Source of the DNA: Actinomycetota bacterium
GTDB taxonomy: Bacteria > Actinomycetota > Geothermincolia > Fen-727 > Anoxymicrobiaceae
Assembly: GCA_016649525.1 (NCBI GenBank)
Contig: JAENXM010000001.1
Span: 1 to 41,263 of the forward strand
Reading direction: 5' to 3'
DNA length: 41,263 nt
The notes under the pieces: model-generated
Told to the model about the DNA's origin: nothing
Databases searched by the model: none
Seen by the model: the letters and a program-made list of their open reading frames with translations, nothing else
Program-made: the position numbers and the translations under genes
Shown here: one piece after another, positions 2,864-27,739 of the stretch
Position numbering within the stretch: position 1 is the stretch's first letter
Layout: each line of letters begins with the position of its first letter

Positions 2864-2897
2864 GGTGCCGGGTCCGGAAAGGATTGGAGGTCTTGTG

Positions 2898-3392: not shown

Positions 3393-4425
3393 CTTCAACG
3401 GCGTCGAGGACCTTGAGGCGTGCCTTCGGTCGCTCTTCCTGCAGGATTACGAGAAGATCGAGCTTTTCCTCATCGACAACGGTTCGACCGACGGCTCACC
3501 CGACGCGCTGCGCGAGTTCGAGCGGGATCCGAAAAACCAGCGCAGGTTCTCCGGTGATTCACCGCGTCTCATTCTGAACGATGAGAACATCGGGTTCAGC
3601 CCGGCTTTGAACCAGGGCGTAAGGGCTTCGACCGGAGAGGTCATAGTACCGCTCAACCCGGATGTCGTCCTCGACAGTGGTTTCATATCCGCAATTGTGG
3701 CGCCGCTCGAGGAGCCCGGCGTGGGAAGCGTTACGGGCAAGCTCTTGAGGTTCCCGCCCGGTGGGGAGAACAACGCCGTCGATTCGGTCGGGCACCAGAT
3801 ATTCAGAAACCGCCTGGCGAAGGACCGCGGTGAGGGTGAACCCGGGGCGACCTCCTATCTCGAGCGCGAGATCGTTTTCGGGACCTGCGGGGCCGCTGCC
3901 GCTTACTCCCGGCGGATGCTCGATGACGTCGCTGTCGACGGCGAGTACTTCGACGAGGCCTTCTTCGCTTTCTGGGAGGACCTCGACCTCGATTGGCGGG
4001 CGAACCTGCGGGGCTGGAGATGCGTCTACGAGCCGACGGCAATCGCCTATCACAGGCGTGGCGGCACCGGTTACAGGAAAACGCTCCTGGTCGAATATCA
4101 TAACTACAAGAACCGGTACCTCATGATTATCAAGAACGATTCCGTGCGGTACCTGCTCCGCAACCTGCCCGGGATCCTGGTGACCGAGGCGCTCAAGGGC
4201 GGCGCGCTGCTGGTCCGGTGCCCGAGGGCAATCCTTTCACTCGTGGAAGTGGTCAGGCTCGTGCCGTCGATGCTGAAGAAAAGGCGCGAGATCCAGGCGA
4301 GAAGGATAGTCCCGGCCGGTGAGATCGAGAGGATGCTGGACCCCTTCAGTTACGGTGACTGGATAAAGAGGCACCTTTTCCATCGCGGCGAGATGATAGA
4401 GGGCGCGGAACGGGAGCTGGCGTGA
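3364..4425 (+). CDS. family-2 glycosyltransferase
   Basis: VSVILINFNG, IDNGSTDGS and FWEDLDLDWR motifs typical of GT2 (rhamnosyl/galactosyl-transferase-like). Confidence 0.8.
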   Translation: MKPVSVILINFNGVEDLEACLRSLFLQDYEKIELFLIDNGSTDGSPDALREFERDPKNQRRFSGDSPRLILNDENIGFSPALNQGVRASTGEVIVPLNPDVVLDSGFISAIVAPLEEPGVGSVTGKLLRFPPGGENNAVDSVGHQIFRNRLAKDRGEGEPGATSYLEREIVFGTCGAAAAYSRRMLDDVAVDGEYFDEAFFAFWEDLDLDWRANLRGWRCVYEPTAIAYHRRGGTGYRKTLLVEYHNYKNRYLMIIKNDSVRYLLRNLPGILVTEALKGGALLVRCPRAILSLVEVVRLVPSMLKKRREIQARRIVPAGEIERMLDPFSYGDWIKRHLFHRGEMIEGAERELA

Positions 4426-5330
4426 ACAGGGTGGCCGCGGTCGTCATCAACCGGAACACGCGCGACTTCCTGCGCGATTGCCTGGCCTCCATCGAGGATC
4501 AGGACTTCGCCGGAGGCATATCGACCTGGGTGATCGACAACGGGTCAAACGACGGAAGCCCGGAGATGGTCATATCCGAGTTCCCTTCCGCCAACCTGGT
4601 CTGGAACTCCCGCAACACCGGGTATGCGCGGGCGTGCAACAAGGGCATAGAGCTCAGCCGCGAGCCCTGCGTCATGATAATGAACAGCGACGTGGTTCTC
4701 CGCCCCGACACGGTCGTGCAGCTCGTCGAGTCCCTCGACAGGAATCCCGGCACGGGGGTGGTCGGTCCGAAAGTTCTGAACAGCGACGGGTCTCTCCAGT
4801 ACTCGTGCCGCAGGTTCCCCTCCATAAAGGAATCGTTCGTGCACGCGTTTGTAGGTATCTTCAAGGCCGGGAACCCTTATTCCGAGAGTTACAGGATGAT
4901 GGACATGGACCGCGAGACCGAGACGGAAGTCGACTGGGTCTCGGGGGCTTTCATGGCGTTGAGAAGGGATGCGCTTTCCGACATCCGCGCCTTCGACGAT
5001 AAGTATTTCATGTACGTCGAGGACGTCGACCTCTGCTGGAGGATGCGGCGGGCGGGCTGGACCGTGAACTACGTGCCGAAGGCGGTCGCGGTCCACCACA
5101 TCGGCATGAGCGGCCGCCAGGTTCCGACCAGGATGGTGTTCTGCCACCACCGCAGTATGCTACGCTTCCATCGGAAGACCTACGAAGGACCGTTGAGGCC
5201 CCTGATCCACGCGGTCGTGGCGGCCGGGGTCGCCGCAAGGTTTCTTCTGATAGTGGCGCTTAATCTGTTTTACCGTATCCGCGCCGCGCTCGGCGGGGCG
5301 AAGCGCGTGATAATGCCAGGGAGACAGTGA
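4422..5330 (+). CDS. family-2 glycosyltransferase, in the WbbL-like position (possible rhamnosyltransferase)
   Basis: AAVVINRNT, IDNGSNDGS, NTGYARACNKG and YVEDVDLCWR motifs; 4-nt overlaps on both sides. Confidence 0.8.
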   Translation: MNRVAAVVINRNTRDFLRDCLASIEDQDFAGGISTWVIDNGSNDGSPEMVISEFPSANLVWNSRNTGYARACNKGIELSREPCVMIMNSDVVLRPDTVVQLVESLDRNPGTGVVGPKVLNSDGSLQYSCRRFPSIKESFVHAFVGIFKAGNPYSESYRMMDMDRETETEVDWVSGAFMALRRDALSDIRAFDDKYFMYVEDVDLCWRMRRAGWTVNYVPKAVAVHHIGMSGRQVPTRMVFCHHRSMLRFHRKTYEGPLRPLIHAVVAAGVAARFLLIVALNLFYRIRAALGGAKRVIMPGRQ

Positions 5331-6280
5331 TGGAGAGAACGCTGGTCACGGGGGCGGATGGCTTTGTCGCCTCGCACCTCATCCCCGAGCTGTTCCACGG
5401 GTGGGGCTGCGAGCTCTTCGGGCTCGGCCTGAGACCGGAGCCTTCCTGCTCCGTGGTGGGGCTCGAGTACCGGGTGGTGGACCTCACCGACTTCGAGGGC
5501 GTCGAGAAGGTGCTCGACGGCTTCCGCCCGGATGCGGTGTTCCACCTGGCCGCCCAGCCGTCTGTCGCCCGCTCCTGGGAGGACCCCTGGTCCACCTACA
5601 GGGTAAACCTGCTCGGCCAGGTGAACCTGATGGAGGCGATGAGAAGGCTCGGTATCGAGGCATCGGTCCATATCGCCTGCTCGAGCGAGGAATACGGACG
5701 GGTCTCTCCCGATGAGATGCCCCTCGACGAGGGGGCGCCCCTGAACCCCTGCAGTCATTACGCGGTGAGCAAGGTCGGCCAGGAGGTGCTCGGGAAGATG
5801 TACAGCGAGGCCTTCTCTTGGAGGGTGCTCATCACGCGGGGGTTCAACCAGGCGGGCCCGGGCCAGTCGCCCGACTTCGTGGTCTCCTCGTTCGCACGCC
5901 AGATAGCCCTGGTGGAGTGCGGCAAGGCCGAGCCGGTCCTGAAAGTGGGGAACCTCGAGGCGCGCCGGGATTTCACAGATGTGCGCGACACAGTCAGGGC
6001 CTACCAGATGGTCATGGAGAAAGGCAGGCCGGGCGCCGCTTACAACGTCTGTTCGGGCGTTGCGAGTGCCATATCAGAGGTACTGGAGATCCTGCTCGGC
6101 ATGTCGGACGCCCGGATAACGGTCGCGAAAGACCCGGCACGCCAGCGCCCCAGTGACATACCGGTCCTTGTCGGAGACAATTCGCTCGTGCGAGAGGAGA
6201 CCGGCTGGCAGCCCGAGATCCCTCTCGAGAAAACTCTGGGGGACACACTCGAATACTGGAGGTCCATCGAGTCGCGGTGA
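5327..6280 (+). CDS. rmd: SDR epimerase/reductase, GDP-4-keto-6-deoxy-D-mannose reductase (Rmd)-like
   Basis: GADGFVASHL Rossmann motif, SSEEYG, YAVSK. It has FNQAGPGQ where Gmd has NHxxPRRG. It is a paralogue of the 7469-8422 gene. Confidence 0.6.
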   Translation: MMERTLVTGADGFVASHLIPELFHGWGCELFGLGLRPEPSCSVVGLEYRVVDLTDFEGVEKVLDGFRPDAVFHLAAQPSVARSWEDPWSTYRVNLLGQVNLMEAMRRLGIEASVHIACSSEEYGRVSPDEMPLDEGAPLNPCSHYAVSKVGQEVLGKMYSEAFSWRVLITRGFNQAGPGQSPDFVVSSFARQIALVECGKAEPVLKVGNLEARRDFTDVRDTVRAYQMVMEKGRPGAAYNVCSGVASAISEVLEILLGMSDARITVAKDPARQRPSDIPVLVGDNSLVREETGWQPEIPLEKTLGDTLEYWRSIESR

Positions 6281-6304
6281 CGCGGTTCCTGGAGGTGAAT
6301 TAAC

Positions 6305-7420
6305 TTGAAGGGAGTCATGCTTGTAGGTGGGTTCGGCACAAGGATGCGACCGCTCACCATCACAACCCCGAAGCCGATGCTCCCACTTGTGAACGTGCCC
6401 TTTCTGGAGGTCGAACTTCTCCACCTGCGAAGGTACGGCGTGGATGAGGTGATACTCTCGACCGGGTACATGCCGGCGGTCTTCGACGCCTACTTCGGTG
6501 ACGGCTCCCGCATCGACATGAGGCTCACGCACATCACCGAGGAAGAGCCGCTCGGGACGTGCGGGGCAGTGAAGAACGTGGCGGAGCTGCTGGGGGAGGA
6601 GCCGGTCATCGTATGCAACGGCGATATCCTCACCGACCTCGACATAGGAGCGCTCATCGAGTATCACCGCGAGAAGGGCGCCGCGGTAACGATAACCCTC
6701 ACCCCGGTCGAGGATCCTACCGCCTACGGTCTCGTGCCGCTGGACGACGACGGCCGCATAAAGGAGTTTCTCGAAAAGCCCTCCTGGGACCAGGTCGTGA
6801 CCGACCTCATCAACGCGGGCACATACGTCATAGACCCCAGGGTCTTCAGACAGGTACCGCCCGACACCAATTACTCCTTCGAAAGGGAGCTCTTCCCCGA
6901 CCTGCTCTCACAGGGCGAGCCGCTTTTCGGGTTTCCGTCCGACTGCTACTGGCTCGACCTCGGCACTCCGGCGAAGTACCTTGCGGCCCACCACGACATA
7001 CTCGAGGGGAGGATCGATGTCTCTTTGAGGGGAGAAGAGATCGCCAGGCGCGTTTTCGCGGGTAACGACGTACAGATCGACGACAGTGCCCGGCTATACG
7101 GCCCGCTTCTCATCGGGGACGGCGCCAGCATCGGCGCCGGTGCCAGTGTCGGGAGGCTCACCTGCCTGGGCGACCGCGTGAAGGTGGGGGCTGGCGCGCA
7201 CGTCGAAGGCGCAGTCATCCTGGACGGGACGGAGCTGGGCGAAGGGTGCGTCGTCGAGCAGAGCATCATAGGCCGCAACACGGTCCTGGGCCCGGAAGTC
7301 CATGTTGCGGAGGGTTCGGTATTGGGTGATAATATCGAGGCCGGTGGAGGGAACGAGTTCCGCAGGGGCATCCGTGTGTGGCCCTCTACTTCCATAGAAG
7401 CGGGAAAGATCAAGTTCTGA
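6305..7420 (+). CDS. manC: mannose-1-phosphate guanylyltransferase-type NDP-sugar pyrophosphorylase with a C-terminal left-handed beta-helix
   Basis: LVGGFGTRMRPLT and PKPMLP motifs, then hexapeptide repeats in the C-terminal third. TTG start. Confidence 0.8.
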   Translation: MKGVMLVGGFGTRMRPLTITTPKPMLPLVNVPFLEVELLHLRRYGVDEVILSTGYMPAVFDAYFGDGSRIDMRLTHITEEEPLGTCGAVKNVAELLGEEPVIVCNGDILTDLDIGALIEYHREKGAAVTITLTPVEDPTAYGLVPLDDDGRIKEFLEKPSWDQVVTDLINAGTYVIDPRVFRQVPPDTNYSFERELFPDLLSQGEPLFGFPSDCYWLDLGTPAKYLAAHHDILEGRIDVSLRGEEIARRVFAGNDVQIDDSARLYGPLLIGDGASIGAGASVGRLTCLGDRVKVGAGAHVEGAVILDGTELGEGCVVEQSIIGRNTVLGPEVHVAEGSVLGDNIEAGGGNEFRRGIRVWPSTSIEAGKIKF

Positions 7421-7468
7421 ACCGGTGTCTTGCCCGGGTTTTGCAGTCGCTGTTCCTGGAGGTGAGTA

Positions 7469-8422
7469 TTGAGGGTTTTAATCACAGGTATGACCGGGTT
7501 CGTCGGCAGTCATCTCGCCGAGTACTGCCTGGGTCGCGGCGACGTCGAGGTCTTCGGGACCGTCAGGTGGCGCAGCCGCATGGACAACGTCCCCGACATT
7601 GTCGACCGGGTGGAGATGATCGACTGCGACCTGCGGGACGCGGTGGCGGTCAAGCACTGCCTCGACGAGGTCAGGCCCGACTTCCTTTTCCACCTGGCGG
7701 CTCAGAGCTTCGTCCCGACGTCCTGGAAGGCGCCCGTGGAGACTATGGTCACGAACATCGTTGGGGAGATAAACGTATTCGAGGCTGTGCGCGACCTTGG
7801 CATCGGGACCAGGATACGGGTGGCCGGCTCCAGCGAGGAGTACGGAAAGGTCTACGAGGATGAGTTACCCATCAAGGAGACGAACCCCTTGAGGCCGCTC
7901 AGCCCCTACGGTGTCAGCAAGGTAGGGCAGGACCTTCTCGGGTACCAGTACCACGAGAGCTACGGCCTTCACGTCGTCAGGACCCGCGCCTTCAACCATA
8001 CAGGTCCGCGGCGCGGCGAACCCTTTGTGTCCAGCAACTTCTCGAAGCAGATCGCGATGGTAGAGAAGGGCAGGAAGGAGCCGGTTATAGAGGTCGGAAA
8101 CCTCGAGGCGCGCCGCGATTATACCGACGTCAGGGACATAGTCAAAGCTTACTGGCTCGCTCTTGAGAGGGGGGAGCCGGGAGATGTTTACAACCTTGGC
8201 TCGGGCAGGGACATAAGTATTCAAACGCTACTCGACATGCTGCTCGAGCTCACAACCGTAGAGATCGAGGTCCGGCAGGACCCCGCGAGGATGCGCCCCT
8301 CGGATGTGATGGTGCTGAGGGCCGATACGACCAAGTTCTTTGAGCTCACCGGCTGGAAGCCGGAGATACCCTTTGACAGGACGCTCAACGACCTCTTGGA
8401 TTACTGGCGCGAAAGGGTATAG
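7469..8422 (+). CDS. gmd: GDP-mannose 4,6-dehydratase (short form)
   Basis: ITGMTGFVGSHL, SSEEYG, YGVSK and FNHTGPRRGEPFV motifs. TTG start after GGAGGTGAG. Confidence 0.8.
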   Translation: MRVLITGMTGFVGSHLAEYCLGRGDVEVFGTVRWRSRMDNVPDIVDRVEMIDCDLRDAVAVKHCLDEVRPDFLFHLAAQSFVPTSWKAPVETMVTNIVGEINVFEAVRDLGIGTRIRVAGSSEEYGKVYEDELPIKETNPLRPLSPYGVSKVGQDLLGYQYHESYGLHVVRTRAFNHTGPRRGEPFVSSNFSKQIAMVEKGRKEPVIEVGNLEARRDYTDVRDIVKAYWLALERGEPGDVYNLGSGRDISIQTLLDMLLELTTVEIEVRQDPARMRPSDVMVLRADTTKFFELTGWKPEIPFDRTLNDLLDYWRERV

Positions 8423-8424
8423 CC

Positions 8425-9858
8425 TTGATCGAGTTCGGCACGGACGGCTGGCGCGGTGTCATCGCCGATGACTTCACCTTCGACAGGATATGGCTCGTCG
8501 CGTGCGCAATCTCGCGTTATGTAAGAAAAACAGCCGGGGCCAGGCCTAGCCTGCTCATAGGTTACGACACGCGTTTCAATTCCGACCTTTTCGCCCAGCT
8601 CTGCTCAATCGCAGCAGCCGCCGAGGGCATCGAAGTGATGGTCGCCGACAGGTTCGTCCCGACCCCCTCGGTCTCTTACGCCACCGTGGACCTCGCCACC
8701 GACGGCGCGATAATGATAACGGCGAGCCACAATCCGCCCCGCTACAACGGCATCAAGTTCAAGGCTCCCTACGGAGGCTCGGCCTCCACCACCATCACCG
8801 CGGCGATCGAGAAGGAGCTTCGCCTGGTGGAGAAGGACCCGCCGGAGAGGCCCGACGTCCTTTTCGAGGACATCCTGGCCGAGGGCACGGTGAAGCTTTT
8901 CGACCCCGGGCCCAGGTACATGGAAAAGGTCGTCTCGATGGTGGACTCGAAAGCCGTAGCGGGAGGCGGGTTAAAGGTACTCTTTGACCCGATGTACGGA
9001 GCGGGGCAGGGCTACTTCCCGGAGGCCATGGAGCGGCTGGGCACGAGCTGCGACCAGATCCACGGCGAGCACAACCCTCTCTTCCCCGGCCTTCAGCCCG
9101 AGCCGATAGGCGACAACCTGAACGAGCTGAGGGAAGCGGTCGTCGCGGGGGAGTACCAGGTCGGCATCGCCGTGGACGGTGACGCGGACCGGGTGACCGC
9201 CATCGACGCGACCGGGCGTTTCATAAGCTCCCACATGGTTTTCGCGCTCCTTTTGAAGCATCTCATCGAGGTTAGGGGATGGACCGGAAACGTTGTCAAG
9301 ACCGTGTCCACCACTTCCATGATAGACAGGCTCTGTGAGAAGTACGGGCTCAAGCTCCACGTCGTGCCCGTCGGCTTCAAGTACATATGCGACCTCATGC
9401 TCGAGGAGGACATACTGATCGGCGGCGAGGAGAGCGGCGGGACCGGCATAAAGAACCACATCCCCGAGCGGGACGGCATCCTGGTGGGGCTGCTGCTCGT
9501 GGAGATAATGGCTACCAGCGGGAAGACCCTCGGCCGGCTAATCGAAGAGCTGATGGACGAGCTAGGGCGCAGGTTCGTGTACCTTCGCAGGGACATCGAG
9601 CTGACCCGGTCGCACAAGGAAGCGCTCCTCGAGAGCCTGCCGGGCTTGAGGCCCGAGGGCATCGGTGGGCTGAAGGTGACAGAGGTGGAGACCATCGACG
9701 GCCTCAAGTTCCACCGCGAGGACGGGTCATGGGTGATGCTCCGGGTCTCGGGGACGGAGGCCGTTGTCAGGGTCTACGCGGAGGCCGTCTCCGAGCAGGA
9801 AGTGGAGGGCCTTGTCGCCGCGGGAGAGAAGCTGATAGGAGAGGCGGCACCCGTCTGA
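8425..9858 (+). CDS. phosphomannomutase/phosphoglucomutase
   Basis: Active-site TASHNP, the metal loop DGDADR and GEESGG. TTG start. Confidence 0.9.
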   Translation: MIEFGTDGWRGVIADDFTFDRIWLVACAISRYVRKTAGARPSLLIGYDTRFNSDLFAQLCSIAAAAEGIEVMVADRFVPTPSVSYATVDLATDGAIMITASHNPPRYNGIKFKAPYGGSASTTITAAIEKELRLVEKDPPERPDVLFEDILAEGTVKLFDPGPRYMEKVVSMVDSKAVAGGGLKVLFDPMYGAGQGYFPEAMERLGTSCDQIHGEHNPLFPGLQPEPIGDNLNELREAVVAGEYQVGIAVDGDADRVTAIDATGRFISSHMVFALLLKHLIEVRGWTGNVVKTVSTTSMIDRLCEKYGLKLHVVPVGFKYICDLMLEEDILIGGEESGGTGIKNHIPERDGILVGLLLVEIMATSGKTLGRLIEELMDELGRRFVYLRRDIELTRSHKEALLESLPGLRPEGIGGLKVTEVETIDGLKFHREDGSWVMLRVSGTEAVVRVYAEAVSEQEVEGLVAAGEKLIGEAAPV

Positions 9859-10949
9859 TGGAGGGCGAAATGGATTACGCCGAGGTCAACCTGGACGACG
9901 TCGAGGGAGTTGCGACAATCGATACCGCGGGGATGCTTGGCGCTCTAGAGAGGTTTCCACAGCAGGTGCGAGAGGCTATCGAGATAGGCCGTGCGCCCGC
10001 TGAACTCCCGGATGCGGCAGACCTGAGGGCTGTGGTTGTCCTGGGCATGGGTGGCTCGGGCATATCGGGTGATGTGGTCGGCTCACTTGCCGCCGACAGC
10101 CTGGGTGTTCCGATGTCTACCGTCAAAGGCTACAGGCTTCCAGGGTTCGTCGATGAGAATACACTGGTCTTCGCCGTCAGCTACTCCGGCAATACCGAGG
10201 AGACGCTTGGCTGTGTAGAGGAGGCGCTCGGGCGAGGCGCCACTGTCGTGGCGGTGACAAGCGGCGGAAGGCTCGCGGAGATCGCGGGTGAGCGCGACCT
10301 GCCGCTCTTCCAGGTGCCGGGGGGACTTCAGCCACGCGCGGCGCTGGGCTACCTGTTCGTACCCGTTCTATCCGCACTGGAGCGCATCGGGCTCGTCCAC
10401 GGTCTTTTAGAAGAGTTGGGCGCCGCCTGCGAGATGCTTGACGAAAGAGTCCAGGAATACGGCGTGGTGACGCCGCTCGACGACAACCCGGCGAAAAGAC
10501 TCGCCAGGGACCTCGTAGGCTTCCTGCCCGTCATTTACGGGTCGGAGGGTCCCCTGGCGGTGGCCGCGCTGCGCTGGAAGGCCCAGTTCAACGAGAACAG
10601 CAAGGTACCCGCTTTCTACAACTGGTTTCCCGAGCTCAACCACAACGAGACGGTCGGCTGGAACCACCTCGAGGATATCGGCTCGCGGTGCCATCTCATC
10701 GTGCTCCGGGAGCAGGATGAGCGCCCCAGGGTCGCCAGGAGGATCGAGATAACCCTTGACCTCATAAAGGACGACGTGGGTCACATCACCCACGTGTTCG
10801 CGAGGGGCTCGAGCCGGGTTGAGCGGCTCCTGGACCTCGTGTGTTTCGGAGACCACACATCCGTCTTCCTTGCGCTCGCCCTCGGGCAGGACCCCACGCC
10901 TGTCACGCGCATCGAGGAGTTCAAGAGGCGTCTGGCAGAACAATCCTGA
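9858..10949 (+). CDS. SIS-domain bifunctional phosphoglucose/phosphomannose isomerase family protein
   Basis: The real start is the ATG at 9858, overlapping the pmm stop (ATGA). The 157 aa that the ORF track adds upstream are Arg-rich off-frame read-through of pmm. GMGGSGISGD and SYSGNTEE motifs. Confidence 0.8.
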   Translation: MEGEMDYAEVNLDDVEGVATIDTAGMLGALERFPQQVREAIEIGRAPAELPDAADLRAVVVLGMGGSGISGDVVGSLAADSLGVPMSTVKGYRLPGFVDENTLVFAVSYSGNTEETLGCVEEALGRGATVVAVTSGGRLAEIAGERDLPLFQVPGGLQPRAALGYLFVPVLSALERIGLVHGLLEELGAACEMLDERVQEYGVVTPLDDNPAKRLARDLVGFLPVIYGSEGPLAVAALRWKAQFNENSKVPAFYNWFPELNHNETVGWNHLEDIGSRCHLIVLREQDERPRVARRIEITLDLIKDDVGHITHVFARGSSRVERLLDLVCFGDHTSVFLALALGQDPTPVTRIEEFKRRLAEQS

Positions 10950-13517: not shown

Positions 13518-14210
13518 ATGGTCTCTTCTTATGCATATGAGCAGGTCCTCGACCTGGTGTTTCCGACGGTCTGCCTCGGCTGTGGCAAAGCTGGCGGGCG
13601 AATCCTCTGCGAGGGTTGCCTCGCGCGAATCGCCTCCTCGTGCAATCAAGTGGAGCTGGATTCACATAGGGGTTATCCGGAGCATTGCCCTCGACTGAAT
13701 GGATTCCGCGCTGCGGGGCCATATCTCGGTGTTATCAGGGAACTCGTTCTGAGTCTCAAGTCGCACGGGAGGCCGTTCGCGTTCCCGCTGGCGCGCCTCA
13801 TGGTCGCCGCGGCGGGCAACGACCCCGACTACGTAGCTCCAAAGGCGATCTACTACGTTCCCTCCGAGAGGAGCAAAATTAAAGAGCGCGGGCACAACCC
13901 GGCCGAGGTCCTCGCCTGCGCCGTCTCGACACTCCTCGGGAGGCCCCTCAGCCACAGTCTTGAGAAGATAAAGGCGACAGAGGACCAGGACCGGCTGCCC
14001 GCGGTCCTCAGGTGGGGCAATGTCTCGGGCGCCTTCAGGTGCATGCCCGGGTTCAAAGCGCGTGGCTCAGTACTCCTGATAGACGACGTTCTCACCACGG
14101 GGACGACCGCACGGGCCTGCGGAGGAGCACTGCTCGATGCCGGCGCCGACGCTGTTCATGCGCTGGTCGCGGCACGGGCCGTCCTGCGCCGAGGGTACGC
14201 GGCAACTTAA
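13518..14210 (+). CDS. comFC: ComF family phosphoribosyltransferase-domain protein
   Basis: N-terminal CLGCG...CEGC zinc finger and the C-terminal LLIDDVLTTGTT PRT motif. Confidence 0.85.
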   Translation: MVSSYAYEQVLDLVFPTVCLGCGKAGGRILCEGCLARIASSCNQVELDSHRGYPEHCPRLNGFRAAGPYLGVIRELVLSLKSHGRPFAFPLARLMVAAAGNDPDYVAPKAIYYVPSERSKIKERGHNPAEVLACAVSTLLGRPLSHSLEKIKATEDQDRLPAVLRWGNVSGAFRCMPGFKARGSVLLIDDVLTTGTTARACGGALLDAGADAVHALVAARAVLRRGYAAT

Positions 14211-14239
14211 TCCCCCAAACGGGCGTTTTATGATGTCGA

Positions 14240-14268
14240 TTGTAGGGGATAAATGGACCTGCTAAAAT
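14240..14268 (+). promoter_or_regulatory. sigma-70-like promoter candidate upstream of flgM
   Basis: TTGTAG (14240-14245), a 17-nt spacer, then TAAAAT (14263-14268). Confidence 0.3.
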
Positions 14269-14377
14269 GGCCCATAAGCATAGTTCAGATTCTCGTTAGG
14301 TCTGACGATACATATTATGATAAGATTTAATGCGGGGTTCAGACCTAGTTCAGAAGCCGTGGCAAGGTGAGTGCGAG

Positions 14378-14644
14378 ATGCAGCTATCAGACCGAGAAAT
14401 ACAGAACACACTTGACTTGCTCAAGAAACAGAGGTCTGCCGGCGAGGCTGATGTCACATCCTTGAGCGCCGAAGAGATCGAGGGGATTCACGGTGTCGTC
14501 GAGCAGATTGGCGATATGCCCGAGGTCCGGAAGGACAGGGTAGAGAAGATCAAGAGGGCGATCGAGTCCTCGAGCTACAACGTGACCGGCGATGACGTTG
14601 CCAAGAAGCTCATAGGGCGCATTCTCTCGGATAAGATACGTTAG
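14378..14644 (+). CDS. flgM: anti-sigma-28 factor FlgM
   Basis: The C-terminal VRKDRVEKIKRAIESSSYNVTGDDVAKKLI matches the FlgM sigma-28-binding domain. I chose the ATG at 14378 after AAGGTGAG; the track starts at 14330. Confidence 0.7.
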   Translation: MQLSDREIQNTLDLLKKQRSAGEADVTSLSAEEIEGIHGVVEQIGDMPEVRKDRVEKIKRAIESSSYNVTGDDVAKKLIGRILSDKIR

Positions 14645-14704
14645 GCCGCTTTTGGTTATCCATCATCACTCGATAGACCACGTGATTCGTATTATCATTG
14701 CTTT

Positions 14705-14916
14705 GGGATAAGGTCCCGGTCTGTGGTTGAAAGTCGATGCCAGTCGCAGGCGAAACGACCCACGTAAGGCAACAATTGGTTGCTGAGCATGGTGCGACTT
14801 AGGGGTAAGCCCTGCCTCCTTTAAAGGAGAGAAGGGGGAGTGGGCAGGCGCTTCAGTCATGCTTGCAAACCCTCAGCAGGCGAGTGTGGGGTCAAAGACC
14901 AGGTCAGCGGGACCCT
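14705..14916 (+). ncRNA. candidate structured ncRNA (raiA-motif-like; family not verified)
   Basis: It lies in a 423-nt gap with no credible ORF. Nested helices: 14712-14718/14908-14914, 14723-14726/14760-14763, 14781-14787/14872-14878, 14788-14792/14857-14861, 14811-14816/14843-14848 and 14817-14820/14825-14828. It sits between comFC and hpf. Confidence 0.4.
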
Positions 14917-14926
14917 TTCCCATTTT

Positions 14927-15002
14927 GGGTCGGGACTTGATTATTGCGTAGATAACGACAAGTGACGCAATCCAATATAACGCAAGAATCAAGACCTGAC
15001 CC
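14927..15002. repeat. palindromic repeat element, copy 1 (23-nt arms, 30-nt loop)
   Basis: GGGTCGGGACTTGATTATTGCGT (14927-14949) faces ACGCAAGAATCAAGACCTGACCC (14980-15002). The pairing has 20 Watson-Crick pairs, 1 G-T wobble and 2 mismatches. The right arm is identical to copy 2. Confidence 0.8.
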
Positions 15003-15067
15003 ATTGCTGGACACTCATTTAACCGTGTGGTACCCTACCGGATAGTCTACTTAACTGGGGGCTGGTT

Positions 15068-15271
15068 TTGGAAACAGGTGTAGTGAAGTGGTTTAACCCC
15101 GAGAAGGGGTTCGGTTTCATAGAGCGCGAGAACGGAGACGATGTGTTCGTGCACTTCTCCGACATCACCGCGGAGGGCTACCGGACCCTTAACGAAGGCG
15201 AACCGGTGCAGTTCGACGTGGTAGAGGGAGACAGAGGTCCCAAAGCGACCAATGTCCAAAGGCAGACCTGA
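15068..15271 (+). CDS. cspA: cold-shock protein (CspA family)
   Basis: [15 protein letters not shown] (RNP1) and DVFVHFS (RNP2) motifs; 67 aa; TTG start. Confidence 0.9.
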
Positions 15272-15293
15272 GCGCGAAGAAAGCTAGAGCATG

Positions 15294-15342
15294 CAACCCC
15301 ATTTGCCTGCAGGGCGTAAGATGGGGTTGTAATTTTTTTTCT
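15294..15342 (+). terminator. intrinsic terminator after csp
   Basis: CAACCCCAT (15294-15302) pairs with ATGGGGTTG (15321-15329), followed by a T8 run at 15333-15340. Confidence 0.75.
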
Positions 15343-15395
15343 TCCCCGGGAACGCGATCGAACTGTCGTTCTGAACTAAATAGGAGGAAGGTCTG

Positions 15396-15938
15396 TTGCA
15401 GGTCATAGTCAAGGGCAAGAACATCGAGGTTACCGATGCGCTGCGCACTCACGCGGAACAGAAGGTGGCCAAGATAGGGAAGCTCGGGCTCGACTTCAAG
15501 GAGATAGAGGTCAAGCTCGTCGTTGAGAAAAACCCGAGTATAAAGGACAATCAGATAGCGGAGCTTACCCTGGTGGGGGGAGGGCCCCTGCTGCGGGCGA
15601 CCGACCGGGACCGTGACATGTACGTCGCGATTGACAAGGCGGTGTCAAAGCTCCTCAGAAGGACCAAGAAGTTCCACGGGAAGCAGATAGACAGGACCCA
15701 GGCCCAGGAGAGCGCCCTCAGGGTGCCGTCGCCTGAGGAGCCCCCGGAAGAGGAAAGCCAGTCCATAGTCAAGAAGAAGAGGATATCATTGAAGCCGATG
15801 ACGCCCGAGGAAGCGGTCCTCCAGATGGAGATGCTGGGTCATGATTTCTTCGTGTTCACGGACTCGGAGACGGACCAGGCTACGGTGGTCTACAAGCGCA
15901 ACGATGGGAACTTCGGACTTATAGACACTTCCGGGTAG
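15396..15938 (+). CDS. hpf: ribosome hibernation-promoting factor, long form (RaiA/HPF family)
   Basis: An S30AE N-terminal domain (VKGKNIEVTDALR...) and a C-terminal dimerisation domain (MTPEEAVLQMEMLGHDFFVF). AGGAGG lies 8 nt before the TTG start. Confidence 0.9.
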   Translation: MQVIVKGKNIEVTDALRTHAEQKVAKIGKLGLDFKEIEVKLVVEKNPSIKDNQIAELTLVGGGPLLRATDRDRDMYVAIDKAVSKLLRRTKKFHGKQIDRTQAQESALRVPSPEEPPEEESQSIVKKKRISLKPMTPEEAVLQMEMLGHDFFVFTDSETDQATVVYKRNDGNFGLIDTSG

Positions 15939-16031: not shown

Positions 16032-17636
16032 ATGGTAAAGGGCTCACGTCTCGAGCTTGACGAGTCCCTCTTCGATGGTGATGAGAAGAAGTCTCTGCTC
16101 GGAAGGGGCAGGATCGACAATACCATTGCCGTCGTCGCGGTCCTTGCGCTGGTCCTTGTCGTTCTTTTGGCCATCACCGCTAAGAACGAGAACTGGTGGG
16201 CTGTTTTTCTCATCGGGCTCCTGTTCTTCGCGTCCGAGTTCTTCGCTCTGCCCATGAAGTCGGGAGGGCGCCTTTCGCTTGCCATGCTGCCGCTTGTCAT
16301 AGCGATGATGGTATCGGGTCCCCTGGGCACCGCGGTCGTCCCTCTATTCGCCATTCCGGTGTTCTTCATGGAGCAGGGCGAGTGGGGCGTAAGGCGGATC
16401 GTTTTCAACGCCTGCCAGTATCTGGTCGCTGCGGGCGCCGCGGGCTGGATATTCATGCACACGGGCGGAAAGCTGTTGATCCCCGATGTGTCGAACGGCG
16501 GCAAGCTTCTCCTGCCGTGGATTCTCGCGACCCTTGTCTTCTTCCTGCTGAACACGGTATTCGCCGCGCTGGTGCTTACCCCGGAGGATGACAGGTTGCT
16601 TCGCTTCTGGCGACTCAGGCTTCTGCCCAGGTTCCCCGGCTACGTGCTCTACTCGGGTATCGGTTTCCTCGCGGCGATACTATACGTCAGGCTCGAGTTC
16701 CCGGGCGTGGTTCTCCTGTTCGCGCCCCTGTTAGGGATCAGGGTCGTGTATACACGGTACGCGAAGATGCGCGACGTTTGTGACGATACGACGCTGTCCA
16801 TCATGGAGGCCGTGGAGGGTGGCGGGATGTTCAGCGAAGGACACAGCCTGGGGGTAGCAGATATTGTGGAGGCGATATCCGAGGAGATGAATTTCCAGGA
16901 AGAGGACATCCACTATCTACGCCAGGCGGCGCTGCTCCACGATGTCGGCAAGCTTGCCCTTGATCCCGCGCTAATCGACAAGCCCGGCGTGCTCACGACC
17001 GAGGAATTCGACGAGATAAAGAAGCACCCGCTCATAAGCGCGGAGATAGTCTCTAAAGAGGATTCGTTTGCGCCGGTCGCGCCGTCGGTCACGCATCACC
17101 ACGAGTCGGTGGACGGAAGCGGGTACGTCGACGGCCTCTCGGGTGATACCATCCCGCTGGGTGCGCGTATCCTGGCGGTAGCGGACGCCTTTGACGCGAT
17201 GCAGCGCGCTACATCTTACAGGGAGCCGATAGAACCGTACCTCGCCGCATCCGAGATCATAAGGGGAAAGGGAATACAGTACGACCCGGAAGTGGTGGAC
17301 GCCTTCATCAAAGTTGCGAAGAGGCGCGGCATCTGGGCAGGATCGCGCAAGGAAATACTGAGTGTGTCCGGGGCGGAAGCCGAGGGCGAGCCGCGCCTGA
17401 TTCCCGAAGTGGACCAGCAGAGTCTCGATGAGGCGGCTACCCGGGAGGCGGGAGCCGCTGCTCCGTCTGCGGAGGGGACAGTGTACGGGGAGATGAAAGG
17501 CGAGATAGAGCAGGATATAAGGGAATGGAAGAAGGCTGAAGGTGGAAGAGGACGAAGGGGCCGAACAGAGCAAAAAAGAAGAACGCCGTCTCTCTGGAAG
17601 AAGAAGGCCAAGGAAGACGAGGGGCCGCAGGACTAG
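16032..17636 (+). CDS. multi-pass membrane HD-GYP domain protein (probable c-di-GMP phosphodiesterase) with a charged low-complexity tail
   Basis: About 230 aa of hydrophobic segments come first, followed by the LLHDVGKLAL and HHESVDGSGYVDG (GYP replaced by GYV) motifs. The last ~110 aa are rich in Lys, Arg and Glu. Confidence 0.8.
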   Translation: MVKGSRLELDESLFDGDEKKSLLGRGRIDNTIAVVAVLALVLVVLLAITAKNENWWAVFLIGLLFFASEFFALPMKSGGRLSLAMLPLVIAMMVSGPLGTAVVPLFAIPVFFMEQGEWGVRRIVFNACQYLVAAGAAGWIFMHTGGKLLIPDVSNGGKLLLPWILATLVFFLLNTVFAALVLTPEDDRLLRFWRLRLLPRFPGYVLYSGIGFLAAILYVRLEFPGVVLLFAPLLGIRVVYTRYAKMRDVCDDTTLSIMEAVEGGGMFSEGHSLGVADIVEAISEEMNFQEEDIHYLRQAALLHDVGKLALDPALIDKPGVLTTEEFDEIKKHPLISAEIVSKEDSFAPVAPSVTHHHESVDGSGYVDGLSGDTIPLGARILAVADAFDAMQRATSYREPIEPYLAASEIIRGKGIQYDPEVVDAFIKVAKRRGIWAGSRKEILSVSGAEAEGEPRLIPEVDQQSLDEAATREAGAAAPSAEGTVYGEMKGEIEQDIREWKKAEGGRGRRGRTEQKRRTPSLWKKKAKEDEGPQD

Positions 17637-19099
17637 ACCTGCTCCCGATCTGAGCTTCATAGAGGAAGGGCCCGGGATCGAGGAAGAGGCGCCCGAGTTT
17701 CGTGACATGGAGCTCGAATTTGAGGGACTAGAGCCCGGCCCCGAGGGGGAGGCCCCCGCTCCATCCGAAGAGATGAAACCCGTCCCGGCCATACGGCTGC
17801 GACCGAGGCCTGAGAGAAGAGAATCGGCGAGGCGTCGTGAGCCGCGGGAGCCCGGAGCCGGCGGCGCGCGGGTTATCATCCTGCTGATAGTCGGGGCGGC
17901 TCTCGCCACCCTGGTGGTCTCGATCCTCTATACGAAGCTCAGCCTCATCGACTATGGCAACTTCTTTTTCTACCTGGCCGTTTTCACGCTCTGCGCCGAG
18001 TTCGAGTTGAGGACAAAGGGTGGAGGCTCGCTCAACATGGGCCTGGCCCCGCTTCTGGCGGCCCTGATCTCGCTGCCGGCGGTGCAGGTCGTCTGGGTCT
18101 TCCTTTTCGGTTCCTTGATCGCGATGTTCACCCGGTTGATGGGGAAGGTGACGAAGGACGACGTGTTCGGCATGCTGATCGACTACGCGGGGGTAGGCGC
18201 CGCCGCGACCGTATTCCAGTTCTTCGCGAAGGTGATCCCCAAGAAACCGGAGCTGCACGGCAACTACTGGCCGGGCGTGCTGGTATCGGTTGCGATAGCC
18301 GCCGGGGTCCTGTTCCTCGTCTACCTGGTGCGGTCCACCTTTGTCCTCTCCCAGGAGGGATACCTCCCGGTCGCGGTGTATTTCAAGAGCACGGTTCGCA
18401 GGTCCTGGCTTGCGTTCCTCGCGGTCGGGTTTATCGGTGTCCTGATGGGGCTTATCTACGTAGGGATCGGGATGTGGTCGGTACTGTTCGCGCTGCCCCT
18501 GCTCCTCGTATTCGCGTACGCTTACAACAGGGTGGCGGCGACCGACCGGTACCTGCTCGACACCATACGCATACTGTCCGCGATTCCCGAGGAGACGGGC
18601 AGGATCACGAAGGGTCATGCGGAGCGGGTGGCCGAGCTTTCGGTAGGGGTAGCGCGTGAGCTCGGGCTTTCACCCGAGGACCTCCAGCAGGTGGAGTACG
18701 CGGCTTACCTGCACGACATAGGCGCCATCATGAAGGAAAAACCCGACGAGGAACAACAGCAGCTGATGGAGACGGAAGGTGTAATAGAGGGCGGCATGGA
18801 CATAGTCGGCAAGGTGGATTACCTGGAGGTGGCGGCGGAGATACTGCGGGGCCGCGAGGGCCTCAGGGACCGCGTCGAGGACGTCGACAAGCGCAGGGCG
18901 GTGAGCATGGGCGCGGGCATCCTCCGGGCGGTCGATGACTTTGAACTGCTCGTCCAGGGGACCGAGGGCCGTGAGCCGCTCTCCGAGGGAGACGCCCTCA
19001 TAGAGATGAACCTCGAGAGGGGCGTTCGTTACGACAGCAAGGTACTGCGCGCGATAGCAAAGGTGCTTCCGAGATTACCAAGGGAAGGGGTCTCATCGA

Positions 19100-21607
<2,508 letters not shown>

Positions 21608-27574: not shown

Positions 27575-27620
27575 ACCAATCATGGCCCCATGCGGGAGTC
27601 GAACCCGCGTGGGGGGTGCC

Positions 27621-27647
27621 GGGGGGCTTGCCCCCCGAATAATTTCT
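27621..27647 (+). terminator. hairpin terminator candidate after the tmRNA
   Basis: GGGGGG-CTTG-CCCCCC (27621-27636), followed by GAATAATTTCT. Confidence 0.45.
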
Positions 27648-27739
27648 ATGATGGGGTGGTACAGCAAGACTGCGTGAGCGGGCTTGCGTCCTAGGAGGGG
27701 CGAGAGCCCCTCCTGGAAGAGCGGAGGGAACCGGAGCGA

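What the first reader, a model, noticed from the sequence alone, without database searches (positions are those of the whole stretch)
14705..14916. A ~210-nt multi-helix RNA candidate in the comFC...hpf interval, the position typical of the raiA motif
The flgM-csp gap (14645-15067) is the longest coding-free stretch in the window. Its only ORF is a 64-aa antisense one with no start context.

Several nested complementary segments are visible:
- GGTCCCG 14712-14718 with CGGGACC 14908-14914 (closing stem)
- GTGG 14723-14726 with CCAC 14760-14763
- TGCTGAG 14781-14787 with CTCAGCA 14872-14878
- CATGG 14788-14792 with TCATG 14857-14861
- CCTGCC 14811-14816 with GGCAGG 14843-14848, enclosing the UCCU-UUAA-AGGA hairpin and a purine-rich GAGAAGGGGGAGU strand

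A weak TCGATA-17-TATCAT promoter (14670-14698) would start transcription at about 14705. The palindrome at 14927-15002 follows directly and could terminate the transcript.

The raiA motif is a large ncRNA of unknown biochemical function in Actinomycetota and Bacillota. It is typically found downstream of comFC and upstream of raiA/hpf, which is the neighbourhood here (comFC 13518-14210, hpf 15396-15938). I cannot recall the consensus well enough to confirm membership. It could instead be a 6S-like RNA or an unclassified one.
Basis: partly seen in the sequence, partly recalled or inferred. Interest (0 to 1): 0.7.

Follow-up and report, generated by a model that had tools for sequence, protein, structure and literature searches.

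The report
A standard raiA (ModT) noncoding RNA

Summary
Window 14710-14916 (+) is a full-length raiA motif RNA (Rfam RF03072): 175 bits against a gathering score of 101.3, E 1.5e-44, model 1-209/209. It keeps 79 of 85 highly conserved consensus positions. It also keeps every element of the published cryo-EM architecture: P1a/b/c with the GU and GGU bulges, the GAA(A) junction, P3a/b, PK1, PK2 and P4-P8.

Of his five helices, only the closing stem belongs to the real fold. The small UCCU/AGGA hairpin he mentioned is also real (P7).

The contig is from a metagenome. Its closest relatives are Geothermincolia/Anoxymicrobiaceae MAGs (Actinomycetota). Twelve related loci carry the same RNA in the order ComFC-FlgM-raiA-Csp-Hpf-HD-GYP.

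The RNA looks like a separate gene. It has a positionally conserved promoter. csp has its own conserved promoter and its own terminator.

The palindrome after the RNA is not a dedicated terminator. It is one copy of a dispersed hairpin repeat (second copy at 36520-36607) from a widespread GGGGTCAGG...CCTGACCCC family.

Published work shows raiA/ModT acts in trans on growth-phase transitions, partly through c-di-GMP. Its biochemistry is still unknown. Verdict: already known, low interest.

The parts
14670..14698 (+). Promoter-like site of the raiA RNA gene: TCGATA (14670-75), 17-nt spacer, TATCAT (14693-98). The predicted transcription start is about 14705.
   Evidence: One search gives a 9/12 match, which alone is no better than chance. 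One search shows the same two hexamers (TTGnnn-17-TAnCAT) aligned in 9 relatives, although the flanking sequence is otherwise unconserved. That this is a sigma-70-type promoter is inferred.
14710..14916 (+). raiA motif RNA (ModT), 207 nt, of the subtype without P2 and with the P6-P7-P8 domain.
   Evidence: RF03072, 175 bits, gathering score 101.3, E 1.5e-44, model 1-209/209; 79 of 85 highly conserved consensus positions are identical; 98.5% of cells paired on the 13-sequence alignment.
14710..14728 (+). 5' strands of P1a (14710-18), the GU bulge (14719-20), P1b (14721-23) and P1c (14724-28). Their partners are 14908-16, 14905-07 and 14897-901, with the GGU bulge at 14902-04.
   Evidence: P1a has 5 pairs with changes on both sides. 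P1b, P1c and both bulges are invariant in 13 sequences. The layout follows PMC12968392.
14729..14759 (+). GAAA junction (14729-32) and the P3 hairpin. P3a is GUCG 14733-36 with CGAC 14756-59. The internal loop is AU / GAAA. P3b is GCC 14739-41 with GGC 14749-51. The apical loop AGUCGCA is 14742-48.
   Evidence: Mapped by hand onto the cryo-EM architecture. All pairs are standard in 13 of 13 sequences, but they are nearly invariant, so there is no covariation.
14793..14799 (+). 3' strand of pseudoknot PK1 (UGCGACU), pairing with the P3b loop at 14742-48. PK2 is U14790-A14894 and G14791-C14893.
   Evidence: PK1 is 7 pairs and 100% paired, with one pair varying U-G / C-G / U-A. PK2 is 96% paired. 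Rfam writes PK1 as a nested helix.
14760..14788 (+). P4 5' strand CCAC (14760-63, pairing with GUGG 14886-89) and the P5 hairpin (14764-88).
   Evidence: P4 is invariant and 100% paired. P5 has one compensatory pair (GC to CG) and two pairs that change on one side only.
14799..14808 (+). Single-stranded linker UUAGGGGUAA, a variant of the conserved UUAGA(C/A)GUAA that has been proposed as the KhpA/KhpB binding site.
   Evidence: A14803 is replaced by G. The same variant is present in 12 of the 13 aligned clade sequences (L012 reads UUAGGUGUAA) and in the distant L055. The proposal is in PMC12968392.
14811..14880 (+). P6 (14811-15/14876-80), P7 hairpin (14816-20/14825-29) and P8 (about 14833-73). 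The P8 internal loop lacks 2 nt of the consensus E-loop strand.
   Evidence: P6 is invariant, P7 has 4 compensatory pairs, and the P8 base has 2; four of the six deviations from conserved positions fall in P8.
14917..14926 (+). U-rich tract (UUCCCAUUUU) directly after the P1 3' strand. It is a possible end of a short isoform.
   Evidence: most relatives have T5-T7 runs at this position. The comparison with ModT(S) in PMC11706538 is an inference.
14927..15002 (.). Long hairpin, with arms 14927-49 and 14980-15002. It is one copy of a dispersed palindromic repeat. It may form the 3' stem-loop of a read-through isoform.
   Evidence: A second copy lies at 36520-36607. The 16-mer occurs 4 times against 0.26 expected. 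Related elements follow raiA in L011, L012, L013 and L015. There is no T-run after it.
15008..15036 (+). The csp gene's own promoter-like site: TGGACA (15008-13), 17-nt spacer, TGg-TACCCT (15031-36).
   Evidence: this block is conserved in all 11 aligned relatives, while the sequence between raiA and it is not. The promoter function is inferred.
15068..15271 (+). Cold-shock protein gene, followed by its own intrinsic terminator (hairpin 15292-15331, then U8 at 15333-40).
   Evidence: CSD domain, 101 bits; hairpin at -30.1 kcal/mol, z-score -2.9, followed by UUUUUUUU.
13518..14210 (+). Divergent ComF/GntX-family gene (comFC-like), the usual upstream neighbour of raiA RNA.
   Evidence: TIGR00201 matched over 1-189/190, E 1e-13, but below the trusted cutoff; conserved at this position in 10 relatives.
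14378..14644 (+). flgM (anti-sigma-28 factor), lying between comFC and the RNA.
   Evidence: Conserved at this position in 11 relatives.
15396..15938 (+). Long-form ribosome hibernation factor gene (hpf/raiA), the gene that gave the motif its name.
   Evidence: the Ribosomal_S30AE and Ribosom_S30AE_C domains. TIGR00741 above its cutoff.
16032..19152 (+). Two membrane-anchored HD-GYP-type (HD_5) proteins. The first carries HHE..DGSGYV, so it is a candidate c-di-GMP phosphodiesterase. The second lacks those motifs.
   Evidence: Found next to hpf in 12 of 13 raiA-bearing loci and in only 1 of 37 others. That contrast is confounded by phylogeny.

Best explanation
Window 14710-14916 (+) encodes a raiA motif RNA, called ModT in Clostridioides difficile. 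It belongs to an uncultured, deep-branching actinobacterium of the Geothermincolia/Anoxymicrobiaceae lineage.

**What is shown here**
- The sequence fits the family's covariance model at full length.
- It contains every conserved structural element.
- It is conserved in the same place in 12 related genomes.

**What I infer from the sequence**
- It is its own transcription unit. Transcription would start at a conserved sigma-70-like promoter, at about 14705.
- The transcript would end either at the U-rich tract right after the P1 stem, giving about 215 nt, or after read-through into the following hairpin repeat, giving about 300 nt. C. difficile ModT has a comparable short and long pair of isoforms.
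- csp and hpf downstream have their own signals.

**What I take from published experiments on other species**
- The RNA folds into a compact core locked by two pseudoknots, with the P1 arm protruding.
- It accumulates to very high levels.
- It acts in trans on the switch from growth to stationary phase. In C. difficile this works partly by lowering c-di-GMP.

**My committed guess for the biochemistry**
- About 40%: a stable scaffold or receptor RNA that binds a protein partner or a small ligand through the exposed UUAG..GUAA linker and the conserved core.
- About 20%: a trans-acting ribozyme.
- Remainder: something else.
For: **Identity**
- RF03072 scores 175 bits against 101.3, E 1.5e-44, untruncated.
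- 79 of 85 highly conserved positions are kept.
- 51 of 57 model pairs are standard.
- The literature-based fold, including PK1 and PK2, is 98.5% paired on 13 sequences. Twelve pairs change on both sides. Slid controls give only 31-43% pairing.

**Context**
- The gene order is ComF-family, FlgM, RNA, Csp, Hpf, HD-GYP x2, SecA, PrfB. This matches the published associations with comFC, raiA, secA, prfB, cyclic-dinucleotide signalling and motility genes.
- Relatives are named Actinomycetota or Geothermincolia.

**Independent gene**
- The raiA promoter is positionally conserved.
- The csp promoter is conserved, while the 83-270 nt between raiA and it are unconserved and variable in length.
- csp has its own terminator.

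**Trans action, abundance, isoforms, c-di-GMP link and structure**
- PMC10861870, PMC11706538 and PMC12968392.
Against: - There is no expression data for this organism. The promoter, the 3' ends and the isoforms are all inferred.
- The promoter match alone is at chance level.
- No canonical intrinsic terminator follows the RNA.
- The conserved linker differs at two positions (UUAGGGGUAA), and the P8 E-loop strand is 2 nt short. The partner interactions described in Clostridia may therefore not transfer.
- Core helices P1b, P1c, P3, P4 and P6 are invariant in my alignment. Here they are supported by conservation and by the published structures, not by covariation.
- The protein-partner evidence is inconsistent between papers. 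The Kd for KhpA/KhpB is only about 2 uM.
- The biochemical function is unknown in every species.
Confidence: 0.9

Rival explanations
1. The RNA is a cis-acting riboswitch or leader that controls csp and/or hpf downstream. This is what the Rfam type label ('Cis-reg; riboswitch') and the motif's name suggest.
For: - Rfam 15 lists RF03072 as 'Cis-reg; riboswitch'.
- The RNA lies upstream of csp and hpf on the same strand, and no canonical terminator separates it from csp.
- In vivo probing in C. difficile showed growth-phase-dependent reactivity changes, which is compatible with ligand binding.
Against: - csp has its own conserved promoter, 92 nt after the RNA.
- The spacer is unconserved, ranges from 83 to 270 nt, and accepts insertions of a mobile-looking palindrome.
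- csp ends in its own terminator before hpf.
- There is no expression platform overlapping a ribosome-binding site.
- Knockouts in two species are complemented in trans.
Confidence: 0.04
2. The RNA is a trans-acting ribozyme: an RNase P-like single-copy catalyst that acts on an invariant substrate, possibly one in cyclic-dinucleotide metabolism.
For: - About 25% of positions are conserved at 97% or more, and the core is pseudoknotted. Most large conserved bacterial ncRNAs of known function are catalytic. This is the argument of Soares et al..
- tRNA and 5S levels change in the modT mutant.
- In this lineage the RNA sits next to HD-GYP genes.
Against: - No self-processing or other catalysis has been observed in vitro.
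- The cryo-EM structures revealed no recognised active site or known ligand pocket.
- Nothing in this window bears on catalysis.
Confidence: 0.18
3. The region is a 6S-like RNA, some other unclassified RNA, or a chance set of complementary segments.
For: The MFE z-score of the region is only -2.0.
Against: - A permissive Rfam scan of both strands found no 6S or other family. The next-best hits are microRNA hairpin models on the palindrome, and cspA at 18 bits against a gathering score of 78.
- The raiA E-value is 1.5e-44.
- Twelve syntenic homologues exist.
Confidence: 0.01

Closest known systems
raiA motif RNA, Rfam RF03072 (Weinberg et al. 2017, PMC5737381; Soares et al. 2024, PMC10861870), also called ModT of Clostridioides difficile (Lence et al. 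2024, PMC11706538)
   Same: - Full-length covariance-model match.
- P1a/b/c with the GU and GGU bulges, the GAA(A) junction, kinked P3a/b, PK1, PK2 and P4-P8.
- Located downstream of a ComF-family gene and upstream of hpf, with secA and prfB nearby.
- One copy in the window.
- The host phylum is Actinomycetota.
- The G+C content (58%) is typical of a structured RNA.
   Different: - flgM and csp are inserted between the RNA and its canonical neighbours.
- The linker reads UUAGGGGUAA, not UUAGA(C/A)GUAA.
- The P8 internal loop lacks 2 nt of the E-loop consensus.
- The RNA is followed by a dispersed palindromic repeat, not by a canonical rho-independent terminator.
- The host class (Geothermincolia-like) is not among the classes named in the 2024 survey as holding most raiA-bearing organisms. 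I could not check whether it was nevertheless included.
Ca-raiA, the Clostridium acetobutylicum raiA RNA solved by cryo-EM (He et al. 2026, PMC12968392)
   Same: It is the same subtype: no P2, a three-way J1 junction with the U-GAA-A tetraloop-like turn, and P6-P7-P8 present. The length is similar (207 nt against 204 nt).
   Different: The sequences of the peripheral stems P5, P7 and P8 differ. In Ca-raiA the P8 E-loop docks on PK1. Here that loop is shortened, so the docking cannot be assumed.
REP/BIME-type and MITE-type intergenic palindromic repeats (relevant only to the hairpin at 14927-15002)
   Same: - It is a dispersed, intergenic, highly stable hairpin.
- It is found between convergent genes and after transcription units.
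- It shows a presence/absence polymorphism between close relatives.
   Different: - The conserved termini are GGGGTCAGG...CCTGACCCC, with variable interiors. This is not the GTAG-type REP head.
- No associated transposase was seen.
- I found no description of this family, and there is no Rfam match.

Membership tests
raiA motif RNA (RF03072) | The covariance-model score reaches the curated gathering threshold over the full model. | tested here: met
   175 bits against 101.3, model 1-209/209, not truncated. One search gives the same hit under the permissive filters.
raiA motif RNA (RF03072) | Closing stem P1 in three segments: a 9-bp P1a, a GU bulge, P1b, a GGU bulge and P1c. | tested here: met
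   P1a is 14710-18/14908-16, with 8 of 9 standard pairs and 5 pairs covarying. Both bulges, P1b and P1c are invariant in 13 sequences.
raiA motif RNA (RF03072) | A GAA(A) tetraloop-like junction after P1c (subtype without P2), and a kinked P3a/P3b hairpin with an A-rich asymmetric loop. | tested here: met
   U-GAAA-G is at 14728-33. P3a is GUCG/CGAC, the loop is AU//GAAA, and P3b is GCC/GGC. The sequence matches, but there is no variation to test covariation.
raiA motif RNA (RF03072) | Pseudoknots PK1 (P3b loop with the linker) and PK2. | tested here: met
   PK1 is 7 bp and 100% paired in 13 sequences. PK2 is U-A and G-C, 96% paired. The two pairs are C-G and G-C in the solved Nocardioides structure, so the first is changed on both sides.
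raiA motif RNA (RF03072) | A highly conserved single-stranded linker, UUAGA(C/A)GUAA, between PK1 and P6. | tested here: inconclusive
   The window has UUAGGGGUAA, matching 8 of 10 positions. The same variant is in 12 of the 13 aligned clade members and in L055. It is therefore a lineage variant, not decay.
raiA motif RNA (RF03072) | A P6-P7-P8 multi-stem domain with an E-loop in P8 (present in 68% of members). | tested here: inconclusive
   P6, P7 and the base of P8 are present, and P7 and P8 covary. The E-loop strand lacks 2 nt and three conserved positions differ. Whether P8 docks cannot be judged from sequence.
raiA motif RNA (RF03072) | Genomic position downstream of comFC (74% of members) and upstream of raiA/hpf (66% of members). 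| tested here: met
   a ComF-family gene lies upstream and a long-form Hpf downstream, with flgM and csp interposed. This order holds in 10-11 relatives.
raiA motif RNA (RF03072) | The host belongs to Bacillota or Actinomycetota. | tested here: met
   the closest Hpf loci (67-76% identity) come from MAGs named Actinomycetota, Candidatus Geothermincolia or Candidatus Anoxymicrobiaceae. The window itself is an unnamed metagenome contig.
raiA motif RNA (RF03072) | An abundant, stable transcript that acts in trans. | not testable with these tools
   Only sequence signals are available: conserved promoters for the RNA and, separately, for csp.
6S RNA | A match to the 6S/SsrS covariance models, with a long helix and a central bubble. 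| tested here: not met
   no 6S hit at E up to 10 on either strand of 14200-15450.
Cis-acting riboswitch | An aptamer joined to an expression platform (terminator or RBS sequestration) directly upstream of the regulated ORF. | tested here: not met
   No terminator-like site was found. A conserved promoter lies between the RNA and csp. The spacer varies in length and sequence.
cspA thermoregulator (RF01766) | The covariance-model score reaches the gathering threshold. | tested here: not met
   18.4 bits against 78.

The most novel reading that the evidence does not exclude
In this deep-branching actinobacterial lineage the raiA RNA sits in a conserved block: FlgM, raiA, (Csp), Hpf, HD-GYP, HD-GYP. 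The most novel reading not excluded is that the RNA takes a direct part in c-di-GMP turnover, for example as a receptor or cofactor for the neighbouring HD-GYP phosphodiesterases. On this reading, the lineage-wide G-rich linker (UUAGGGGUAA) and the altered P8 loop would mark a different partner interface from the one in Clostridia. If true, this lineage would be a useful second system for finding the long-sought biochemical function.
Probability: 0.08. Interest if true: 0.7.

Novelty: already known. Interest (0 to 1): 0.22.

Why it matters
raiA/ModT is one of the most widespread large bacterial ncRNAs whose biochemical function is still unknown, so correct annotation matters. This copy adds no new kind of element. 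It gives three modest things.
- **A corrected helix map.** This matters for anyone using the first-stage sketch.
- **Independent transcription.** Sequence evidence from a second phylum supports the RNA being a separately transcribed gene. Rfam's 'Cis-reg; riboswitch' label is therefore misleading for annotation pipelines.
- **A possible model lineage.** In this lineage the RNA is tightly syntenic with motility (FlgM) and c-di-GMP (HD-GYP) genes and carries a variant of the supposedly invariant linker. This fits the c-di-GMP link found in C. difficile and could guide the choice of model organisms.

Tried and rejected
- **MFE folding of the region.** The z-score is only -2.0 and the fold cannot show the pseudoknots. 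It is not informative for membership.
All four are rejected as parts of the native fold: GTGG/CCAC, TGCTGAG/CTCAGCA, CATGG/TCATG and CCTGCC/GGCAGG.
- **The palindrome as a dedicated intrinsic terminator.** Rejected. It has no T-run, there is a second copy elsewhere, and it is absent in L010 but present in L011.
- **The palindrome as a known RNA family.** Only sub-threshold microRNA hairpin matches were found.
- **A literature search for GGGGTCAGG/CCTGACCCC.** It returned only eukaryotic nuclear-receptor and primer hits.
- **More divergent raiA examples among the other Hpf loci.** Only L055 was found, so the covariation test rests on 13 fairly close sequences.
- **HD-GYP adjacency as independent evidence.** The contrast is real but confounded by phylogeny. 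Soares et al. had already noted cyclic-dinucleotide genes near raiA.
- **My own ORF caller for the gene context of the palindrome family.** It is too noisy and misclassified the window's own copy. I use it only as a trend.
- **A sigma-28 promoter upstream of the RNA, suggested by the flgM neighbour.** Rejected because the aligned relatives conserve TTG at -35 and TAnCAT at -10, not the sigma-28 motif.
Full report
**1. The observation**

Scanning the whole window against Rfam 15 at gathering thresholds gave two hits. One is raiA RNA (RF03072) at 14710-14916 (+): 175 bits against a gathering score of 101.3, E 1.5e-44, model positions 1-209 of 209, not truncated. The other is the tmRNA at 27231-27574.

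A permissive scan (E up to 10) of 14200-15450 on both strands added nothing credible.
- There was no 6S and no riboswitch.
- The cspA thermoregulator scored 18 bits against a gathering score of 78.
- Generic microRNA-hairpin models matched the palindrome below threshold.

The window RNA is identical to the model at 79 of its 85 highly conserved consensus positions. Of the 57 model pairs, 51 are standard pairs.

**2.

I projected the Rfam structure onto the sequence and compared it pair by pair.
- The closing stem (14712-18/14908-14) agrees at 7 of 7 pairs.
- The other four listed helices share no pair with the family fold.
- The UCCU-UUAA-AGGA hairpin he mentioned is real; it is P7.

On an alignment of the window with 12 homologues (A1), his helices fare as follows.
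- CATGG/TCATG and CCTGCC/GGCAGG are paired in only about 53% of cells. Their 3' partners lie in the variable tip of P8.
- TGCTGAG/CTCAGCA is maintained within the close clade only because both strands are conserved. In L014 and L015 a GC-to-CG switch keeps the P5 pair (columns 60-74) and breaks his pair (columns 74-189).
- GTGG/CCAC joins two invariant strands. The published structures assign them to P1c, and to P4 (CCAC 14760-63 with GUGG 14886-89).

**3. The actual architecture**

I used the 2024 consensus (PMC10861870) and the 2026 cryo-EM structures (PMC12968392) to map the elements.

| Element | Coordinates |
|---|---|
| P1a | 14710-18 / 14908-16 |
| GU bulge | 14719-20 |
| P1b | 14721-23 / 14905-07 |
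| GGU bulge | 14902-04 |
| P1c | 14724-28 / 14897-901 |
| GAAA turn | 14729-32 |
| P3a | 14733-36 / 14756-59 |
| P3 internal loop | AU // GAAA |
| P3b | 14739-41 / 14749-51 |
| PK1 | 14742-48 / 14793-99 |
| P4 | 14760-63 / 14886-89 |
| P5 | 14764-88 |
| PK2 | U14790-A14894, G14791-C14893 |
| Linker | 14799-808 |
| P6 | 14811-15 / 14876-80 |
| P7 | 14816-20 / 14825-29 |
| P8 | about 14833-73 |

There is no P2. The RNA is therefore of the same subtype as the solved C. acetobutylicum RNA.

Counted on A1, this fold with both pseudoknots behaves as follows.
- 98.5% of cells are paired.
- 12 pairs change on both sides, in P1a, P5, P7 and P8.
- None of 500 shuffles reaches the observed values.
- Slid controls give 31-43% pairing.

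The core helices (P1b, P1c, P3, P4, P6) never vary in this set. My data therefore support them by conservation only, and the covariation evidence for them is the published one.

Two deviations are worth recording.
- The supposedly near-invariant linker UUAGA(C/A)GUAA reads UUAGGGGUAA. The same variant is in 12 of the 13 aligned clade members (L012 reads UUAGGUGUAA) and in the distant L055.
- The P8 internal loop lacks 2 nt of the E-loop consensus, and three further conserved P8 positions differ.

**4. Origin and relatives**

The Hpf protein is encoded verbatim on ENA metagenome contig ERZ27271186 k141_3330172, which is 41,867 nt long.

The nearest Hpf loci among GTDB species representatives (67-76% identity) are MAGs labelled Actinomycetota, Candidatus Geothermincolia, Candidatus Anoxymicrobiaceae and Candidatus Geohydrothermomicrobium.
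- Twelve of the thirteen closest loci carry a full-length raiA RNA (167-181 bits) about 500 nt upstream of hpf. The thirteenth is cut off upstream.
- Among 40 more distant loci, only L055 has one.

Gene order is conserved.
- The close clade has MtnA, ComF-family, FlgM, raiA RNA, Csp, Hpf, HD-GYP, HD-GYP.
- The sister clade (L014, L015) lacks csp.
- In the window the series continues with SecA, PrfB, FtsE, FtsX, SmpB and tmRNA.

This matches the published neighbourhood of comFC (74%), raiA/hpf (66%), secA and prfB, together with genes for cyclic-dinucleotide signalling and motility.

The comFC assignment rests on a full-length match to TIGR00201 that is below the trusted cutoff.

The HD-GYP adjacency is seen in 12 of 13 raiA-bearing loci and in 1 of 37 others, and that one locus is truncated upstream. 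This is lineage-specific synteny, so it is not independent evidence.

**5. Transcription-unit anatomy (inferred from sequence)**

- *raiA promoter.* The TCGATA-17-TATCAT match (14670-98) is no better than chance alone: 1 found, 1.1 expected. It does align with TTGnnn-17-TAnCAT in nine relatives, in otherwise unconserved sequence. In the window the RNA starts about 11 nt after the -10 hexamer. Relatives have leaders of 30-40 nt.
- *3' end.* Directly after P1 most relatives have a T5-T7 run. The window has UUCCCAUUUU.
- *csp promoter.* A block conserved in all 11 aligned loci lies just upstream of csp: TGGACA-17-TGnTA(A/C)CCT, at window 15008-36.
- *csp terminator.* csp is followed by its own hairpin plus a U8 run (15292-15340; -30.1 kcal/mol, z-score -2.9).

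So raiA, csp and hpf look like three separate units. This argues against the reading that the RNA is only the csp 5' UTR, and against Rfam's 'Cis-reg; riboswitch' type label. It agrees with the trans-complementation reported in two species.

**6. The palindrome at 14927-15002**

It is real: 23-nt arms and a 30-nt loop. It has no T-run and was not scored as a terminator. It is one copy of a dispersed repeat.
- A perfect 30-bp-stem version lies at 36520-36607, between the convergent Ham1/RdgB and LMW-phosphatase genes. It folds at -59.6 kcal/mol with a z-score of -12.
- The 16-mer GGGTCAGGTCTTGATT occurs 4 times in the window against 0.26 expected.
- Elements with the same termini follow raiA in L011, L012 (two copies), L013 and the distant L015.
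- L011 carries a roughly 96-nt insert with the element, which the otherwise near-identical L010 lacks.

- In these hits, 8.9 of the 11 positions just inside the fixed termini are complementary, against 2.9 after shuffling the interiors.
- The flanks are A-rich on the left and T-rich on the right.
- A rough gene-context count gave 23 convergent, 27 tandem and 12 divergent. My caller is unreliable, so this is only a trend.

The element thus resembles a REP/MITE-like hairpin that tends to sit at gene 3' ends. It may well form the 3' stem-loop of a read-through raiA isoform and protect that isoform from exonucleases, as proposed for the C. difficile long isoform ModT(L). It is not specific to raiA.

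**7. How it most likely works**

*Shown here:* identity, fold elements, synteny and probable autonomy as a gene.

*Taken from experiments in other species:*
- Deleting it delays entry into stationary phase and reduces sporulation and aggregation.
- The phenotypes are complemented in trans.
- In C. difficile the sporulation defect runs through raised c-di-GMP, via DccA.
- The fold is a rigid pseudoknotted core with a protruding, length-conserved P1 and an exposed 10-nt linker.
- KhpA/KhpB bind with a Kd of about 2 uM. Earlier RIP-type data did not find KhpB binding.

*My estimates:*
- About 40% for a scaffold or receptor RNA that engages a protein or small ligand.
- About 20% for a trans-acting ribozyme.
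- About 4% for a cis regulator.
- The rest unknown.

**8. Verdict**

This is a routine, full-length member of a known family, in a phylum where the family is known. Novelty: already known. Interest is low for the element itself. The side observations may be worth a separate look: the linker variant, the FlgM/HD-GYP synteny and the GGGGTCAGG hairpin family.

Noticed in passing
window 14927-15002 and 36520-36607; L011 2528-2613; L012 (two copies downstream of raiA); L013 2528-2584; L015 2747-2827; metagenome loci L084-L203: A family of long hairpin repeats with conserved termini (GGGGTCAGG(T/C)CTTG...CAAG(A/G)CCTGACCCC) and variable interiors.
- The window holds two copies, one of them between convergent genes.
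- L011 has the element and the near-identical L010 lacks it.
- The flanks are A-rich and T-rich.
- Some copies are built from tandem GGGGTCA heptamers.
- There is no Rfam family, and I found no description in the literature.
   Followed up: partly
window 27585-27650 (just downstream of tmRNA 27231-27574): A perfect 19-nt inverted copy of the tmRNA T-arm region lies 28 nt downstream of it (27592-27610 against 27545-63). Read on the minus strand it looks like the 3' half of a tRNA, with a T-arm and a 7-nt acceptor strand, but ARAGORN finds no tRNA there. It could be the remnant of an integration site or of a decayed tRNA gene. A G6/C6 hairpin with a T-rich tail follows at about 27611-27650 and is probably the tmRNA terminator.
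   Followed up: partly
window 16032-17636 and 17542-19152: Two consecutive membrane-anchored HD-GYP-family (HD_5) proteins lie directly after hpf. The first has HHE...DGSGYV, that is GYV in place of GYP, and a weak MASE9-like N-terminus. The second lacks the HHE/GYP motifs and may be a degenerate sensor. The pair is conserved next to hpf in every raiA-bearing relative of this lineage and is absent from the other Hpf loci.
   Followed up: partly
window 14799-14808; the same positions in L004-L016 and L055: The raiA linker, reported as highly conserved UUAGA(C/A)GUAA and proposed as the KhpA/KhpB binding site, reads UUAGGGGUAA in 12 of the 13 aligned sequences of this lineage (L012 has UUAGGUGUAA) and in a distant P2-containing actinobacterial member (L055). 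The neighbouring P8 E-loop strand is 2 nt shorter than the consensus in the window's clade but intact in L014 and L015.
   Followed up: partly
L017, L018, L021 (Actinomycetota MAGs): These loci keep the order MtnA...ComF-family, Csp, Hpf. Only about 20-30 nt separate comF from csp, and there is no raiA hit within 3 kb. The RNA has therefore been lost from, or was never present at, this otherwise conserved position in a neighbouring actinobacterial group.
   Followed up: no
Rfam RF03072 record (as returned): Rfam 15 types raiA as 'Cis-reg; riboswitch'. The experimental papers (PMC10861870, PMC11706538) show trans-complementation and argue explicitly against a cis-regulatory role. Annotation pipelines that copy the type label will mislabel this gene.
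   Followed up: yes
window 891-10949 and 40042-41025: A large cluster for sugar-nucleotide and glycosyltransferase functions occupies the left quarter of the window: UDP-glucose dehydrogenase, three GT2 genes, two dehydratase/epimerase genes, a nucleotidyltransferase, a phosphomannomutase and a PGI-like SIS protein. Another epimerase gene lies at the right end. This is ordinary cell-envelope polysaccharide biosynthesis.
   Followed up: no
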